Shown here: positions 1 to 7,841 of the stretch, one piece after another | Layout: each line of letters starts with the position of its first letter | How positions within the stretch are numbered: position 1 is the stretch's first letter | Origin: a virus | Lineage: Duplodnaviria; Heunggongvirae; Uroviricota; Caudoviricetes | Virus record (IMG/VR): IMGVR_UViG_2648501873_000011 | Reading direction: 5' to 3' (one strand) | Length of the DNA stretch: 7,841 nucleotides | Program-made: the position numbers and the translations under genes | Notes under the pieces: generated by a model | What the model was told of the DNA's origin: nothing | Seen by the model: only the letters and a program-made list of their open reading frames with translations | The model's database searches: none

Positions 1-750
1 TCACTGATCTCCTTCGGTCAACGGAGATTGTATTTTCCGCATTGATTCTCCTTTAAGTTCGATCTTGATACTGCCATGAACCAGTCGATCTAGGATGGCA
101 TCCGCATGTGTGGAGTCTCCGATCATTTTGTACCAGTTTTCCACCGGCAACTGGCTCACTACGATGATTGAGCCTCGTTGGTACATCAGATCCACTATTT
201 CCAGCAGGTCGCTACGCTGTTCTGATGAGAGAGGTTCCAGCCCCCAGTCATCCAGAAGCAGCAGATCGCTATTATTCAGCCTGGTCAAAAGTTTGCTGTA
301 TCTTCCATCAGCATGCCCCTGATAGCACTGTTCCATCAGCGCTTTAAGGCGATAATAGTAGACCTTGTATCCCTGTCGGCAGGCATTATGACCAAGTGCA
401 CATGCCAGGAACGTTTTACCGCTGCCGGTGGCCCCGGTCAGTAAAATATTTTGTTTCAGGGTTAACCAGTTTCCCTGACTGAGTGAACGGATGAGGGCCC
501 TGTCCAGCCCTCTATTGTTACGATAATCCAGCTTTGATAACTCAGCATTAAGTCTGAACCGTGCATGTTTGATCAGACGCTCTGCCTTCCTGTTTTCACG
601 GCAGGTTAGTTCTTCTGCTGTCAGTAATGACAGGCGTTCTTCGAAGCCCAGCTCCTGGTATGTGCCCGGTTGAGCAAGTTGCTTTTTAAGCGCATCACGG
701 AAGCCGGTGAGTTTAAGTGCGGTCAGTTGTTCGTAAAGATGATTCATCAT
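1..750 (-). CDS. istB: IS21-family transposition helper ATPase IstB (AAA+ family, DnaC-like)
   Basis: 249-aa ORF with Walker A GATGSGKT and Walker B LLLLDDWG. Starts 11 nt after the istA stop (ATGATG at 745-750 on the minus strand); stop codon TGA at 1-3 (minus strand), so the ORF is complete. Confidence 0.9.
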   Translation of the reverse strand: MMNHLYEQLTALKLTGFRDALKKQLAQPGTYQELGFEERLSLLTAEELTCRENRKAERLIKHARFRLNAELSKLDYRNNRGLDRALIRSLSQGNWLTLKQNILLTGATGSGKTFLACALGHNACRQGYKVYYYRLKALMEQCYQGHADGRYSKLLTRLNNSDLLLLDDWGLEPLSSEQRSDLLEIVDLMYQRGSIIVVSQLPVENWYKMIGDSTHADAILDRLVHGSIKIELKGESMRKIQSPLTEGDQ

Positions 751-761
751 TGGATCCCGTA

Positions 762-2303
762 TCAGTGGTAATACTCACTGCCGCGTACGTTTTCGTGTTC
801 CATCGTGGATAACAGATCTGGTTTTGGATCCTGAACAGGTTGTTTATCCAGACCTTTTTCCAGGATCGATTTAATACCTGACAGACGCCATACCTTTGTT
901 TTCAGAGCTCTTGCACATGCTGCATTAAGTCTGGCTTTACTGTATTTTTTATGAAGGTTCAGGAGTCCAAGGCAGAAGCGATAGCTTTGTTCCGGATGTG
1001 GACGAGAGTTCAGTATATGAAGCACATAACTATGAGTTTCACTGCCTATGTGCCCCGCCCATTCCAGAAGACGCTCTGGCGTCCAGGTGGCATGCTGTCG
1101 ATGAGCTTCAGGCATGTGCTCGTTGCGGGTACTGTAGCCATAAGTACGCTTGCGCGGGTGCACAGCAACCTCCTGCCCCTGATTGAAGAGTCTTACCAGT
1201 TCTCCGGAGATCCATGCTTCCAGTTGCTGGCCTAACAGCGAACATGGAACCGAGTAGTAATGTTTGTCGATTTCCACGTGGTAATCGGCATGAACTCTGA
1301 CTTTCTTCACCAGGGTGTAACTGTAACTGGCTTCAGGAAGAGGCTTCAGTGCGGGTTTATCAAGCTGGATGAAGAGTTCTGCACGTGAATAACCCAACTT
1401 CTGCATTATTTTGTTATTCAGTCTTTCCAGCAACTCCCGAATGCGCTGATTAAGCGATGCAAGGCTGTAGAAGATCTCATGCCTGATTCGGGCCATGATC
1501 CAGCGTTCAACAACCTGAACGCCAACTTCAGCTTTGGCTTTATCTTTCGGTTTACGTGGCCGCGCAGGCAAAACTGCGACATTATAATGCTCAAGCATCT
1601 GCTGGTAGGTAGGGTTAACGTCAGGATCATACTTACATGCCCTGGATGTGGCGCTTTTCAGATTGTCCGGAACAACAAGTTCAGGAACGCCACCCAACCA
1701 CTGGAAGCAGCGAACATGACTCATCACCCAGTCTTCAAGCTGCTGAGACCAGGTGGCCTCTGCCCATGTGTAACTTGATGCCCCGAGAACAGCTACGATG
1801 ACCTGAGCAGTTCTTATTTCTCCGGTCTCAGGGTCGGTAACGCCAACGGTAGGTCCACAGTAATCAACGAAAAGTTTTTCGCCAGCTTTATGTACCTGAC
1901 GCATTGATGGTGAAGTGGTTTTGAGCCATTCACGGTACATCCGGCAGTAATGGTTATAGCTGTAAAAACCGCCTGGATTACGCTCACAGTATTCTTCCCA
2001 GAGTAGCTGCAGCGTCACGCATTTATTACGCAGTTCCCGGTGTACTGTAGCCCAGTCAGGCAGAGAGTGCTTCTTCATCTTAACCTGGGTCTGAAGGAAC
2101 GCATGTTTTAGTTTTGTATCATCCCATCCTGTAGGTAAGGGCCACTGCTTTATGCCAAGTTGAGCCGCCCGATTAGCATATCTGGATACAACGGAAGGGG
2201 AGATTGCAAGACTACGACCAATTTGTCGATGGCTGAGTCCAACACCGTATTTAAGCCTAAGAATTTCTTTAAGTTTTCTCATAGAAATTGGAACTGTTGG
2301 CAT
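762..2303 (-). CDS. istA: IS21-family transposase IstA (N-terminal HTH plus DDE integrase-like core)
   Basis: 513-aa ORF. N-terminal HTH-like segment (LKYGVGLSHRQIGRSLAISPSVVSRYANRA). Central region with conserved acidic residues (FVDYCGP ... VVPDN ...) consistent with a DDE core. AAGGA Shine-Dalgarno about 5 nt upstream of the ATG on the minus strand. Immediately followed by istB. Confidence 0.9.
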   Translation of the reverse strand: MPTVPISMRKLKEILRLKYGVGLSHRQIGRSLAISPSVVSRYANRAAQLGIKQWPLPTGWDDTKLKHAFLQTQVKMKKHSLPDWATVHRELRNKCVTLQLLWEEYCERNPGGFYSYNHYCRMYREWLKTTSPSMRQVHKAGEKLFVDYCGPTVGVTDPETGEIRTAQVIVAVLGASSYTWAEATWSQQLEDWVMSHVRCFQWLGGVPELVVPDNLKSATSRACKYDPDVNPTYQQMLEHYNVAVLPARPRKPKDKAKAEVGVQVVERWIMARIRHEIFYSLASLNQRIRELLERLNNKIMQKLGYSRAELFIQLDKPALKPLPEASYSYTLVKKVRVHADYHVEIDKHYYSVPCSLLGQQLEAWISGELVRLFNQGQEVAVHPRKRTYGYSTRNEHMPEAHRQHATWTPERLLEWAGHIGSETHSYVLHILNSRPHPEQSYRFCLGLLNLHKKYSKARLNAACARALKTKVWRLSGIKSILEKGLDKQPVQDPKPDLLSTMEHENVRGSEYYH

Positions 2304-2370
2304 AGGTATCCTTTACCGGAATGGCAAAAGATACAGATCAACACACCTGTGAAGTTCCAATAACATTGAT

Positions 2371-2479
2371 GGAGATCACTGAATAACAAAATGAGTCAAA
2401 AGTGATCTCCATCGATGTTATTCAGCGATCTGTTCAAATGTTATTACCCGATCTCGATGGAAGTTATTGAGTGATCTCC
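2371..2479. repeat. Multiple terminal repeats of the IS (putative IstA binding sites), in both orientations
   Basis: GGAGATCACTGAATAAC at 2371-2387; AGTGATCTCC at 2401-2410 (perfect inverted partner of 2371-2380); GTTATTCAGCGATC at 2417-2430; degenerate GTTATTACCCGATCTCG at 2440-2456; GTTATTGAGTGATCTCC at 2463-2479. Five GATC sites fall inside these copies. Confidence 0.7.
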
Positions 2480-2483
2480 TTTC

Positions 2484-2960
2484 ATGAAAATACGCAATCA
2501 GGGCGTCGCGAAGTCCGTCACGCTGCCAAAACTGACCCGTAAGCTCGAAAACTATCGCGGTGCGGGGATGAACGGCAGCGCACCGGTAGACCTCGGCCTT
2601 GATGACGATGCGCTGTCAATGGAGTGGTCGCTCGGGGGCTTCCCGGATTCGGTTATCTGGGAACTTTACGCCGCAACCGGTGTGGATGCCGTGCCGATTC
2701 GTTTTGCAGGCTCTTACCAGCGTGACGATACCGGCGAAACGGTGGCCGTCGAAGTGGTCATGCGTGGCCGTCAGAAAGAAATCGACACCGGCGAGGGTAA
2801 ACAGGGAGAAGACACCGAGTCGAAAATCTCCGTGGTCTGCACCTATTTCCGGCTGACGATGGACGGTAAGGAGCTGGTCGAAATTGACACCATCAACATG
2901 ATTGAGAAGGTGAACGGCGTCGACCGGCTGGAGCAACACCGCCGCAATATCGGCCTGTGA
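2484..2960 (+). pseudogene. FII: Phage P2-type major tail tube protein FII, 5'-truncated by the IS insertion. The ORF start and first ~5 codons (MKIRN) are IS/junction-derived; phage-derived coding sequence begins at ~2497-2499.
   Basis: From QGVAKSVTLPKLTRKLENYRGAGMNG onward the translation matches P2-family tail tube protein through to the C-terminus (..DRLEQHRRNIGL). The conserved N-terminal ~15-20 residues of the family are absent. By recall intact P2 FII is ~172 aa, against 158 aa here. No Shine-Dalgarno precedes the ATG at 2484. Confidence 0.8.
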
Positions 2961-3016: not shown

Positions 3017-3292
3017 ATGAACAAAGAAAATGTGATTACCCTGGACAATCCGGTCAAGCGTGGTGAGCAGGTTATCGAACAGGTCACGCTGATGAAACCC
3101 AATGCCGGGACGCTGCGCGGTGTCAGTCTGGCTGCGGTCGCAAACTCCGAAGTCGATGCACTGATTAAAGTGCTGCCGCGCATGACGGCACCGATGCTGA
3201 CTGAGCAGGAGGTCGCCGCGCTGGAGCTGCCTGACCTTGTGGCGCTGGCCGGTAAGGTGGTCGGTTTTTTGTCGCCGAACTCGGTGCAGTAA
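3017..3292 (+). CDS. E: Phage P2-type tail assembly chaperone E
   Basis: 91-aa ORF (MNKENVITLDNPVKRGEQ...) in the position of P2 gene E between FII and T. It ends shortly after a TTTTTTG slippery site. Confidence 0.9.
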   Translation: MNKENVITLDNPVKRGEQVIEQVTLMKPNAGTLRGVSLAAVANSEVDALIKVLPRMTAPMLTEQEVAALELPDLVALAGKVVGFLSPNSVQ

Positions 3293-3444
3293 CGTTTCCG
3301 AAAAATCTCTCGGTCGATGACCTGATGGCGGATGTGGCAGTGATATTTCACTGGCCGCCATCAGAACTGTATCCCATGAGCCTGACCGAACTCATCACAT
3401 GGCGCGAAAAGGCGCTCCGGCGAAGCGGAAACACGAATGAGTAA
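3017..3444 (+). CDS. E+E': Tail assembly chaperone E+E', made by programmed -1 ribosomal frameshift at T TTT TTG (3265-3271)
   Basis: Manual translation of the -1 frame after the slippery heptamer gives ...GFFVAELGAVTFPKNLSVDDLMADVAVIFHWPPSELYPMSLTELITWREKALRRSGNTNE, with stop TAA at 3442-3444. The fusion is 142 aa, the length recalled for P2 E+E'. The -1 frame has no ATG, which is why no separate ORF appears in the track. Confidence 0.8.
3265..3271 (+). promoter_or_regulatory. -1 programmed frameshift slippery heptamer (X XXY YYZ = T TTT TTG)
   Basis: Six Ts followed by G, positioned in the E reading frame as GGT TTT TTG; the downstream -1 frame stays open for 57 codons to 3444. Confidence 0.8.
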
Positions 3445-5884
3445 CAATGTAAAATTACAGGTATTGCTCAGGGCTGTTGACCAGGCATCCCGCCCGTTTA
3501 AATCCATCCGCACAGCGAGTAAGTCGCTGTCGGGGGATATCCGGGAAACACAAAAATCACTGCGCGAGCTGAACGGTCACGCATCCCGTATTGAGGGATT
3601 TCGCAAGACCAGCGCACAGCTTGCCGTGACTGGTCATGCACTTGAAAAGGCACGGCAGGAAGCCGAAGCACTTGCCACACAGTTTAAAAACACTGAACGT
3701 CCGACCCGTGCTCAGGCGAAAGTGCTGGAATCCGCAAAGCGTGCGGCGGAGGACTTACAGGCGAAATATAACCGCCTGACGGATTCCGTTAAGCGCCAGC
3801 AGCGGGAACTGGCCGCTGTGGGAATTAATACCCGCAATCTTGCACATGATGAGCAGGGACTGAAAAACCGTATCAGTGAAACCACCGCACAGCTTAACCG
3901 GCAGCGTGACGCGCTGGCGCGTGTCAGTGCGCAACAGGCAAAACTTAATGCAGTAAAACAGCGTTATCAGGCCGGAAAGGAACTGGCCGGAAATATGGCC
4001 TCAGTGGGCGCTGCCGGTGTGGGGATTGCGGCGGCGGGAACGATGGCCGGAGTTAAGTTGCTGATGCCCGGTTATGAGTTTGCGCAGAAAAACTCAGAAT
4101 TGCAGGCCGTGCTCGGAGTGGCAAAAGACTCCGCCGAAATGACCGCACTACGCAAACAGGCGCGCCAGCTCGGCGACAATACCGCCGCCTCGGCGGATGA
4201 TGCGGCCGGTGCACAGATAATCATCGCGAAAGCGGGTGGGGATGTTGATGCCATTCAGGCGGCAACGCCGGTCACGCTGAATATGGCGCTGGCGAACCGC
4301 CGCACGATGGAAGAAAACGCCGCCCTGCTGATGGGGATGAAATCCGCCTTTCAGCTTTCAAACGATAAGGTCGCTCATATCGGGGATGTTCTCTCCATGA
4401 CGATGAACAAAACCGCCGCCGATTTTGACGGCATGAGCGATGCGCTGACCTATGCCGCACCTGTGGCAAAAAATGCCGGTGTCAGCATTGAAGAAACCGC
4501 CGCAATGGTCGGGGCGCTGCATGATGCAAAAATCACAGGCTCAATGGCGGGGACGGGAAGCCGTGCCGTGTTAAGCCGCCTGCAGGCACCGACGGGAAAA
4601 GCATGGGATGCACTCAAAGAGCTTGGAGTGAAAACCTCAGACAGCAAGGGAAACACCCGGCCAATATTTACCATTCTGAAAGAAATGCAGGCCAGTTTTG
4701 AGAAAAACCGGCTCGGTACTGCCCAGCAGGCTGAATACATGAAAACCATTTTCGGGGAGGAGGCCAGCTCAGCCGCCGCCGTGCTGATGACTGCCGCCTC
4801 AACCGGAAAGCTGGACAAACTGACCGCTGCGTTTAAAGCCTCAGACGGGAAGACCGCCGAGCTGGTAAATATCATGCAGGACAACCTCGGCGGTGACTTT
4901 AAAGAGTTTCAGTCCGCTTATGAGGCGGTGGGGACTGACCTGTTTGACCAGCAGGAAGGCGCACTGCGTAAGCTCACGCAGACGGCCACAAAGTATGTGT
5001 TAAAACTCGACGGCTGGATCCAGAAAAACAAATCACTGGCGTCAACCATCGGCCTCATTGCCGGTGGCGCACTGGCGCTTACTGGCATCATCGGTGCCAT
5101 TGGTCTTGTAGCCTGGCCGGTTATCACCGGCATCAATGCCATCATTGCTGCAGCAGGCGCAATGGGGGCAATTTTCACGACGGTTGGCAGTGCCGTTATG
5201 ACGGCCATCGGGGCGATTAGCTGGCCGGTAGTGGCCGTGGTGGCCGCCATTGTCGCCGGAGCGTTACTTATCCGTAAATACTGGGAGCCTGTCAGCGCAT
5301 TCTTTGGCGGTGTGGTGGAAGGGCTGAAAGCGGCATTTGCGCCGGTGGGAGAACTGTTCACGCCACTTAAGCCGGTGTTTGACTGGCTGGGTGAAAAGTT
5401 ACAGGCTGCGTGGCAGTGGTTTAAAAACCTGATTGCCCCGGTCAAAGCCACCCAGGACACCCTGAACCGTTGCCGTGACACGGGCGTCATGTTCGGGCAG
5501 GCACTGGCTGACGCGCTGATGCTGCCGCTTAATGCGTTCAACAAATTACGCAGCGGCATTGACTGGGTACTGGAAAAGCTCGGGTTCATCAACAAAGAGT
5601 CAGACACACTTGACCAGACAGCCGCCAGAACTCATGCCGCCACGTATGGCACCGGTGGTTATATTCCGGCGACCAGCTCTTATGCAGGTTATCAGGCTTA
5701 TCAGCCGGTTACGGCACCGGCTGGCCGCTCTTATGTGGACCAGAGTAAAAACGAATATCACATCAGCCTGACGGGTGGTACTGCGCCGGGGACACAGCTT
5801 GACCGCCAGTTACAGGATGCGCTCGAAAAATACGAGCGGGATAAACGTGCGCGCGCCCGTGCCAGCATGATGCATGACGGTTAA
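3437..5884 (+). CDS. T: Phage P2-type tail tape measure protein T
   Basis: 815-aa ORF directly after E/E'. The N-terminal ~180 residues are rich in heptad-like charged/Ala/Leu/Gln sequence (coiled-coil character). A long Gly/Ala/Ile hydrophobic segment (LASTIGLIAGGALALTGIIGAIGLVAWPVITGINAIIAAAGAMGAIFTT...ALLIRKYW, about nt 5036-5285) is typical of tape measure proteins. Confidence 0.92.
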   Translation: MSNNVKLQVLLRAVDQASRPFKSIRTASKSLSGDIRETQKSLRELNGHASRIEGFRKTSAQLAVTGHALEKARQEAEALATQFKNTERPTRAQAKVLESAKRAAEDLQAKYNRLTDSVKRQQRELAAVGINTRNLAHDEQGLKNRISETTAQLNRQRDALARVSAQQAKLNAVKQRYQAGKELAGNMASVGAAGVGIAAAGTMAGVKLLMPGYEFAQKNSELQAVLGVAKDSAEMTALRKQARQLGDNTAASADDAAGAQIIIAKAGGDVDAIQAATPVTLNMALANRRTMEENAALLMGMKSAFQLSNDKVAHIGDVLSMTMNKTAADFDGMSDALTYAAPVAKNAGVSIEETAAMVGALHDAKITGSMAGTGSRAVLSRLQAPTGKAWDALKELGVKTSDSKGNTRPIFTILKEMQASFEKNRLGTAQQAEYMKTIFGEEASSAAAVLMTAASTGKLDKLTAAFKASDGKTAELVNIMQDNLGGDFKEFQSAYEAVGTDLFDQQEGALRKLTQTATKYVLKLDGWIQKNKSLASTIGLIAGGALALTGIIGAIGLVAWPVITGINAIIAAAGAMGAIFTTVGSAVMTAIGAISWPVVAVVAAIVAGALLIRKYWEPVSAFFGGVVEGLKAAFAPVGELFTPLKPVFDWLGEKLQAAWQWFKNLIAPVKATQDTLNRCRDTGVMFGQALADALMLPLNAFNKLRSGIDWVLEKLGFINKESDTLDQTAARTHAATYGTGGYIPATSSYAGYQAYQPVTAPAGRSYVDQSKNEYHISLTGGTAPGTQLDRQLQDALEKYERDKRARARASMMHDG

Positions 5885-5898
5885 GGAGGTGATGAAAA

Positions 5899-6378
5899 AT
5901 GATGCTCGCGTTAGGGATGTTTGTTTTTATGCGCCAGACGCTGCCACACCAGACCATGCAGCGTGAATCAGATTATCGCTGGCCGTCAAATTCCCGTATC
6001 GGTAAACGGGATGCCTACCAGTTTCTAGGTGTGGGTGAGGAAAACATGACGCTTGCCGGTGTGCTTTATCCCGAACTGACCGGCGGCAAGCTGACGATGA
6101 CCACGCTCAGACTGATGGCAGAGGAAGGCCGGGCGTGGCCGTTGCTGGATGGCACCGGCATGATTTACGGTATGTATGTCATCAGCAAGGTGAGTGAAAC
6201 AGGGAGTATTTTCTTTGCCGACGGCACACCCCGGAAAATTGATTTTACGCTGTCACTTACCCGCGTTGATGAATCACTGGCCGCGCTTTATGGCGATATC
6301 GGTAAACAGGCGGAATCGCTCATCGGTAAGGCGGGCAGTATGGCAACTAAATTCACGGGTATGACGGGGGCGGGATAA
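5899..6378 (+). CDS. U: Phage P2-type tail protein U
   Basis: 159-aa ORF (MMLALGMFVFMRQTLPHQ...). Strong Shine-Dalgarno AAGGAGGTGA at 5883-5892. Lies between T and D as in P2. Confidence 0.85.
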   Translation: MMLALGMFVFMRQTLPHQTMQRESDYRWPSNSRIGKRDAYQFLGVGEENMTLAGVLYPELTGGKLTMTTLRLMAEEGRAWPLLDGTGMIYGMYVISKVSETGSIFFADGTPRKIDFTLSLTRVDESLAALYGDIGKQAESLIGKAGSMATKFTGMTGAG

Positions 6379-7541
6379 TGCTGGATACGCTGACATTTGA
6401 TGCAGGCAGTACGCTGACGCCGGATTACATGCTGATGCTCGACAGCAGGGATATTACCGGCAATATCAGCGACCGTCTGATGAGCATGACCCTGACGGAT
6501 AACCGGGGCTTTGAGGCTGACCAGCTTGATATTGAACTGAACGATGCCGACGGGCAGGTCGGGCTGCCGGTTCGTGGCGCTGTCCTGACGGTGTATATCG
6601 GCTGGAAAGGGTTTGCCCTGGTATGCAAAGGGAAATTTACCGTTGATGAGGTTGAACACCGGGGCGCGCCGGATGTGGTCACCATCCGTGCCCGGAGTGC
6701 AGATTTTCGCGGGACGCTCAATTCCCGCCGGGAAGGCTCATGGCATGACACCACGCTCGGTGCGATTGTTGAGGCGATAGCCTCCCGTAACAGGCTGGAA
6801 GCCAGTGTCGCTCCGTCACTGGCCGGAATTAAAATCCCGCACATCGACCAGTCGCAGGAGTCTGATGCGAAATTTCTGACCCGTCTTGCAGAACGCAACG
6901 GCGGTGAGGTGTCGGTAAAAATGGGAAAACTGTTGTTTCTCAAAGCGGGGCAGGGGGGGACGGCCAGCGGTAAAAAAATCCCGCAGATTACCATCACCCG
7001 CAGCGACGGTGACCGTCATCATTTTGCGATTGCTGACCGTGGAGCCTATACCGGCGTAACGGCAAAGTGGCTTCACACCAAAGACCCGAAGCCACAAAAG
7101 CAGAAGGTAAAACTGAAACGCAAAAAGAAAGAGAAACACCTGCGCGCACTGGAGCACCCGAAAGCGAAACCGGTCACGCAGAAGAAAGCGCCAAAAGCAC
7201 CGGAAGCGCGCGAAGGTGAATACATGGCAGGTGAAGCTGACAACGTTTTTGCCCTGACCACGGTATATGCCACAAAAGCGCAGGCTATGCGTGCCGCTCA
7301 GGCGAAGTGGGATAAACTGCAACGGGGCGTTGCGGAGTTCTCCATCATCCTGGCTACCGGTCGTGCAGATATTTACACGGAAACACCGGTCAGAGTGTCA
7401 GGCTTTAAGCGCGTCATAGACGAGCAGGACTGGACAATCACTAAGGTGACACATTTTCTGAATAATAGCGGCTTCACGACGTCCTTAGAGCTTGAGGTCA
7501 GGCTTTCTGATGTGGAGTACGAAACAGAAGATTATGAGTGA
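6378..7541 (+). CDS. D: Phage P2-type tail/baseplate protein D (phage late control gene D family; gp27/VgrG-N-like hub)
   Basis: 387-aa ORF (MLDTLTFDAGSTLTPDYMLMLDSRDITGNISDRL...). Its start overlaps the U stop (TAATG at 6375-6380). Contains a lysine-rich basic stretch at about nt 7078-7215. Confidence 0.9.
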   Translation: MLDTLTFDAGSTLTPDYMLMLDSRDITGNISDRLMSMTLTDNRGFEADQLDIELNDADGQVGLPVRGAVLTVYIGWKGFALVCKGKFTVDEVEHRGAPDVVTIRARSADFRGTLNSRREGSWHDTTLGAIVEAIASRNRLEASVAPSLAGIKIPHIDQSQESDAKFLTRLAERNGGEVSVKMGKLLFLKAGQGGTASGKKIPQITITRSDGDRHHFAIADRGAYTGVTAKWLHTKDPKPQKQKVKLKRKKKEKHLRALEHPKAKPVTQKKAPKAPEAREGEYMAGEADNVFALTTVYATKAQAMRAAQAKWDKLQRGVAEFSIILATGRADIYTETPVRVSGFKRVIDEQDWTITKVTHFLNNSGFTTSLELEVRLSDVEYETEDYE

Positions 7542-7622: not shown

Positions 7623-7841
7623 ATGTTTCATTGTCCTTTATGCCAGCATGCCGCACATGCGCGTACAAGCCGCTATATCACTGACACGACAAAAGAGCGT
7701 TATCACCAGTGTCAGAACGTGAATTGCAGCGCCACGTTCATCACCTATGAGTCGGTACAGAGATACATCGTGAAGCCGGGAGAAGTCCACGCCGTAAGGC
7801 CGCACCCGTTGCCGTCAGGGCAGCAAATTATGTGGATGTGA
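7623..7841 (+). CDS. ogr: Phage P2-type late gene transcriptional activator Ogr (C4 zinc-finger protein)
   Basis: 72-aa ORF MFHCPLCQHAAHARTSRYITDTTKERYHQCQNVNCSATFITYESVQRYIVKPGEVHAVRPHPLPSGQQIMWM, with the CxxC...CxxxxC zinc-binding arrangement. Shine-Dalgarno GGAAGAGG lies 8 nt upstream of the ATG at 7623. The stop TGA is at 7839-7841, the window end. Confidence 0.9.
   Translation: MFHCPLCQHAAHARTSRYITDTTKERYHQCQNVNCSATFITYESVQRYIVKPGEVHAVRPHPLPSGQQIMWM

What the first reader, a model, noticed from the sequence alone, without database searches (positions are those of the whole stretch)
1..2496. IS21-family element inserted into the 5' end of the P2-type tail tube gene FII
A complete istA-istB pair sits where the first ~15-20 codons and the promoter-proximal side of FII should be. 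FII reads as recognisable tail tube sequence only from ~2497 onward. A tail tube gene lacking its N-terminus and separated from its upstream operon by more than 2.5 kb of antisense IS should abolish tail assembly, so this prophage is probably defective for virion production.
Basis: partly seen in the sequence, partly recalled or inferred. Interest (0 to 1): 0.6.

Follow-up and report, generated by a model that had tools for sequence, protein, structure and literature searches.

The report
ISEc12 insertion breaks prophage tail-tube gene
A well-known E. coli jumping gene (ISEc12, IS21 family) has landed in codon 19 of the tail-tube gene of a P2-like prophage, which almost certainly stops the prophage from making tails; this is an ordinary, recent gene knock-out, not a new kind of system.

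Summary
Window 1-2496 is the larger part (nt 86-2581) of ISEc12, an IS21-family element 2,581 bp long. It has intact istA and istB and lies antisense to the phage genes. This copy is identical to ISEc12 copies elsewhere in E. coli.

Its istA-side terminus (...ATACGCA) ends at 2496. From 2497 the sequence is P2-type FII starting at nt 56, so 18 codons plus 1 nt are missing. The ORF at 2484-2960 is a chance fusion of an ATG inside the IS terminus to FII residues 20-172.

Two sister assemblies carry the same prophage at the same fieF site with an uninterrupted FII. They differ at 2 of 13,388 bases, so they show the empty site. A second read set holds the same IS/FII junction.

The genes downstream (E, E', T, U, D, ogr) are intact, so the event is recent.

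The other IS end lies 85 bp outside the window. The source contig starts exactly at IS nt 1, so I could not see the FII 5' fragment or the expected 5-bp duplication (ATCAG). Ten other full ISEc12 copies I inspected all have 5-6 bp duplications.

Loss of tail production is inferred, not tested. Nothing here is novel, and interest is low.

The parts
1..2496 (-). ISEc12 (IS21 family), nt 86-2581 of the 2,581-bp element. The remaining 85 bp, with the istB-side terminus, lie left of the window.
   Evidence: The window is L007:86-7926. The element has 0-2 mismatches to nine full copies, each 2,581 bp long. PGAP names these copies ISEc12.
1..750 (-). istB, the AAA+ helper ATPase (249 aa from the first ATG; annotated start at 747)
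   Evidence: PF01695 E 2e-67 and NF038214 at 270 bits. Identical to WP_001016257.1 as encoded in L003.
762..2303 (-). istA, the DDE transposase (513 aa)
   Evidence: rve plus Mu-transpos_C_2, and NF033546 at 310 bits. Identical to WP_001298859.1 as encoded in L003.
2401..2496 (.). istA-side end of the IS. It holds four 23-bp-spaced subterminal repeats (GATCTCC / GTTATT motif) and the terminal inverted repeat 2481-2496, ending in ...CA.
   Evidence: the repeat finder family D1 and inverted pairs I1, I2 and I15 on L007 (window coordinate = L007 coordinate minus 85).
2497..2501 (+). ATCAG, FII nt 56-60: the predicted 5-bp target-site duplication. Only this copy is visible.
   Evidence: The empty site in L015, L018 and L011 reads ...CAGCT ATCAG GGCGTCGCG. 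Other ISEc12 copies have 5-6 bp duplications (PMC10711316).
2497..2960 (+). FII (major tail tube) remnant, nt 56-519, coding residues 20-172
   Evidence: Alignment A1. PF04985 model positions 17-165 and TIGR01611 positions 19-168.
2484..2960 (+). Chance fusion ORF. An ATG inside the IS terminus plus 4 codons (MKIRN) is joined in frame to FII residues 20-172. It has no Shine-Dalgarno sequence and no promoter-like site upstream.
   Evidence: The promoter scan found nothing on the + strand.
3017..3444 (+). E (3017-3292) and E+E' tail assembly chaperones, with the -1 slippery site TTTTTTG at 3265-3271
   Evidence: PF10109. E is identical to Wphi gpE, and the E' frame is open to 3444.
3437..5884 (+). 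T, tape measure protein (815 aa, full length)
   Evidence: PF10145. Same length as Wphi gpT. The exact protein is present in 184 blocks of the public collection.
5899..6378 (+). U, tail protein (159 aa, full length)
   Evidence: PF06995. 157 of 159 residues identical to L002 U.
6378..7541 (+). D, late control / baseplate hub protein (387 aa, full length)
   Evidence: PF05954. 8 differences from L002 D.
7623..7841 (+). ogr, late-gene activator (72 aa). The longer TTG- and ATG-extended ORFs are over-calls.
   Evidence: PF04606. Identical to OgrK of L002.

Best explanation
**What happened.** A copy of ISEc12 transposed into a P2-like (Peduovirus-type) prophage integrated next to fieF. ISEc12 is an IS21-family element with an IstA DDE transposase and an IstB AAA+ helper. 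It landed in codon 19 of the tail-tube gene FII and lies antisense to the tail genes.

**What is shown.**
- The identity of the IS.
- The exact istA-side boundary at 2496.
- Loss of FII nt 1-55 from this side.
- The uninterrupted site in near-identical sister prophages.
- The same junction in a second read set.
- Intact downstream genes.

**What is inferred.**
1. The other IS end, 85 bp left of the window, abuts FII nt 1-60 with a 5-bp ATCAG duplication.
2. No functional tube protein is made. The conserved N-terminal 19 residues are replaced by MKIRN. The fusion ORF has no ribosome-binding site or promoter of its own.
3. The 2.6-kb antisense IS cuts FII-E-E'-T-U-D off from the late promoter upstream of FI.
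4. The prophage can therefore no longer assemble tails or give plaques.

The IS copy is identical to others and nothing downstream has decayed, so the event is recent.
For: - IS boundary and five unrelated flanks.
- 2,581-bp length and 5-6 bp duplications in ten other full copies.
- IstA and IstB 100% identical to canonical ISEc12, with 0-2 nucleotide mismatches.
- Family models above curated cutoffs.
- Terminal and subterminal repeats.
- FII alignment and Pfam/TIGRFAM coverage starting at model positions 17 and 19.
- N-terminus conserved to the R2-pyocin tube protein.
- Empty site in L015 and L018, with 2 mismatches in 13,388 bp.
- Same junction in SRR1191664, which carries different alleles at 6611 and 6958.
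- Downstream genes full length.
- No promoter-like site on the + strand between istA and FII.
- Published 5-bp duplication for ISEc12 (PMC10711316).
- From established P2 genetics (my own knowledge): FII is essential, and FI-FII-E-T-U-D form a single late operon.
Against: - The left junction was not observed. The source contig starts exactly at IS nt 1.
- The pattern TATCAG plus the IS end is absent from the species-representative genomes, JGI metagenomes and IMG/VR.
- No complete E. coli genome carries this junction.
- I ran no expression or induction test.
- The state of the rest of the prophage in this strain is unknown.
Confidence: 0.88

Rival explanations
1. IS-associated rearrangement instead of simple insertion. 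Recombination between two ISEc12 copies, or an IS21-type cointegrate or deletion, joined this IS to FII nt 56. The FII 5' fragment, FI and the rest of the prophage would then be elsewhere or lost.
For: The left flank is unseen, because the contig starts at IS nt 1. E. coli genomes often carry several ISEc12 copies. One search gives up to 17 places per genome, a count that includes FII places.
Against: All ten other full copies inspected, eight of them in this same P2 region, are flanked by matching 5-6 bp duplications. A contig break at a multicopy IS is the normal behaviour of short-read assemblers. The Logan contig also breaks 30 nt inside the IS, as expected for k=31.
Confidence: 0.09
2. 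The IS/FII junction is an assembly chimera and FII is intact in the real genome.
For: It comes from a draft assembly, and the contig ends at a repeat.
Against: The same junction appears in an independently built Logan contig from SRR1191664. That contig differs from the GenBank contig at two positions in gene D, so two data sets or isolates support the junction. The junction falls precisely at the IS terminus, as a transposition product should.
Confidence: 0.01
3. The 158-aa IS-FII fusion is expressed and has a function, for example a truncated tube subunit that poisons tail assembly of superinfecting P2-like phages.
For: An in-frame ATG is supplied by the IS terminus. 153 of the 172 FII residues are retained.
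Against: There is no Shine-Dalgarno sequence within 15 nt upstream and no promoter-like site. The insertion is confined to two records. The in-frame ATG is a fixed feature of every ISEc12 end, so one insertion in three into a gene in this orientation would give such a fusion by chance.
Confidence: 0.02

Closest known systems
ISEc12 (IS21 family) as annotated in complete E. coli genomes, e.g. SE15 NC_013654.1 (L005)
   Same: 2,581 bp with 0 mismatches. IstA and IstB are identical. It has the same TG...CA termini and subterminal repeats.
   Different: Only the insertion site differs.
ISEc12 insertions in FII of other P2-like prophages: strain OkiPb01694 (L013, FII nt ~82) and APEC E19035 (L014, FII 3' end)
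   Same: The same IS disrupts the same gene of the same prophage type. PGAP already flags the FII pieces of L013 as pseudogenes. L014 carries the IS in the FII 3' end.
   Different: The sites differ (22-27 bp and ~440 bp away), the orientation is opposite, and they are independent events.
ISEc12 insertion in tssM of E. coli ST131 clade C (PMC10711316)
   Same: The same IS with a 5-bp duplication inactivates an essential gene of a contractile injection machine. That event was traced by junction sequences.
   Different: That event is fixed in a large clade and affects a type VI secretion system. This one is confined to two records and affects a prophage tail.
Bacteriophage P2 / Wphi FETUD tail operon
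   Same: Gene order FII-E-E'-T-U-D-ogr. FII is 99% identical over residues 20-172, E is identical, and the E' frameshift site is present.
   Different: FII lacks nt 1-55. T is only 92% identical to Wphi T.

Membership tests
IS21 family insertion sequence | Two consecutive genes: istA (HTH plus DDE/rve transposase) followed by istB (AAA+ helper ATPase) | tested here: met
   NF033546 at 310 bits (cutoff 160), NF038214 at 270 bits (cutoff 200), PF00665 and PF01695. The two genes are 11 bp apart on the same strand.
IS21 family insertion sequence | Imperfect terminal inverted repeats ending 5'-TG...CA-3', with several subterminal repeats at both ends | tested here: met
   On the full element in L007, the termini are TGCGTATTACCGTGAA / TTCATGAAAATACGCA. 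There are four 23-bp-spaced repeats at the istA end and two at the istB end. Only the istA end lies inside the window.
IS21 family insertion sequence | Short direct target duplication (4-8 bp) flanking the element | not testable with these tools
   The left flank of this copy is not on the source contig. It was absent from the three collections scanned. Ten other full copies have 5-6 bp duplications.
ISEc12 (the specific element) | Near-identity in nucleotide sequence and length to the named element | tested here: met
   0-2 mismatches over 2,581 bp to nine copies that PGAP names ISEc12. I did not compare it with the ISfinder reference entry itself.
P2-type major tail tube protein FII (PF04985 / TIGR01611) | Full-length match to the family model, including the conserved N-terminal segment | tested here: not met
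   The match covers only Pfam positions 17-165 of 165 and TIGR01611 positions 19-168 of 168. Residues 1-19 of intact FII are replaced by MKIRN. It is therefore a truncated family member, i.e. a pseudogene.
P2-like (Peduovirus) prophage tail module | Gene order FII-E-E'(-1 frameshift)-T-U-D-ogr at a prophage end | tested here: met
   fieF follows ogr on the source contig.

The most novel reading that the evidence does not exclude
The FI-FII-E-T stretch of P2-like prophages may be a preferred landing zone for ISEc12, not merely a place where insertions are tolerated. I verified insertions at 8 other sites there, in both orientations. In total, 44 complete E. coli chromosome records have ISEc12 within 2 kb of FII, out of about 2,156 genomes that carry the tail cluster. 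One FI target carries an 11-nt copy of the IS terminus next to the insertion point. If this is a real target preference, ISEc12 would be a systematic inactivator of P2-type prophages in E. coli.
Probability: 0.1. Interest if true: 0.3.

Novelty: already known. Interest (0 to 1): 0.08.

Why it matters
It matters little beyond annotation. It tells an annotator three things:
- The 158-aa 'tail tube protein' call on this contig is an IS-fusion pseudogene.
- The prophage should be scored as defective.
- The junction sequence could serve as a lineage marker for the small clade that carries it.

IS insertions that inactivate prophage genes are commonplace. ISEc12 knock-outs of FII at other positions are already present, and one is already flagged as a pseudogene, in public complete genomes.

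Tried and rejected
**Searches for the left junction.**
- I scanned for the predicted pattern TATCAG plus the IS end. It gave 0 hits in GTDB species-representative genomes, JGI metagenomes and IMG/VR.
- The right-junction pattern also gave 0 hits in IMG/VR.
- Exact-protein look-ups of the fusion ORF, T and D returned only the source contig and one Logan contig with the insertion. Both break at the IS.
- The exact FI variant is unlikely to be a cluster representative, and its contig would be folded into the 'similar places' of the sister strains.

**Orientation bias.** I suspected it because the first three prophage insertions were all antisense. A search with the IS reversed found 25 records in the opposite orientation against 19 in the same one, so I rejected it.

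**Apparent overlap of IS and FII homology.** IS hits seemed to reach 2509-2514 while phage hits start at 2491. This came from chance flank similarity among top-ranked hits, plus the 5-bp target. Direct alignment fixes the boundary at 2496/2497.

**Ogr-type late promoter upstream of FI.** I looked for the TGT-N12-ACA motif in the sister locus and found no exact match. The promoter argument therefore rests on published P2 genetics.

**Strain identity.** SRR1191664 is mentioned somewhere in an ST131 paper, but the passage could not be retrieved. The lineage is left open.

**Rfam.** The gathering-threshold scan of the window found nothing.
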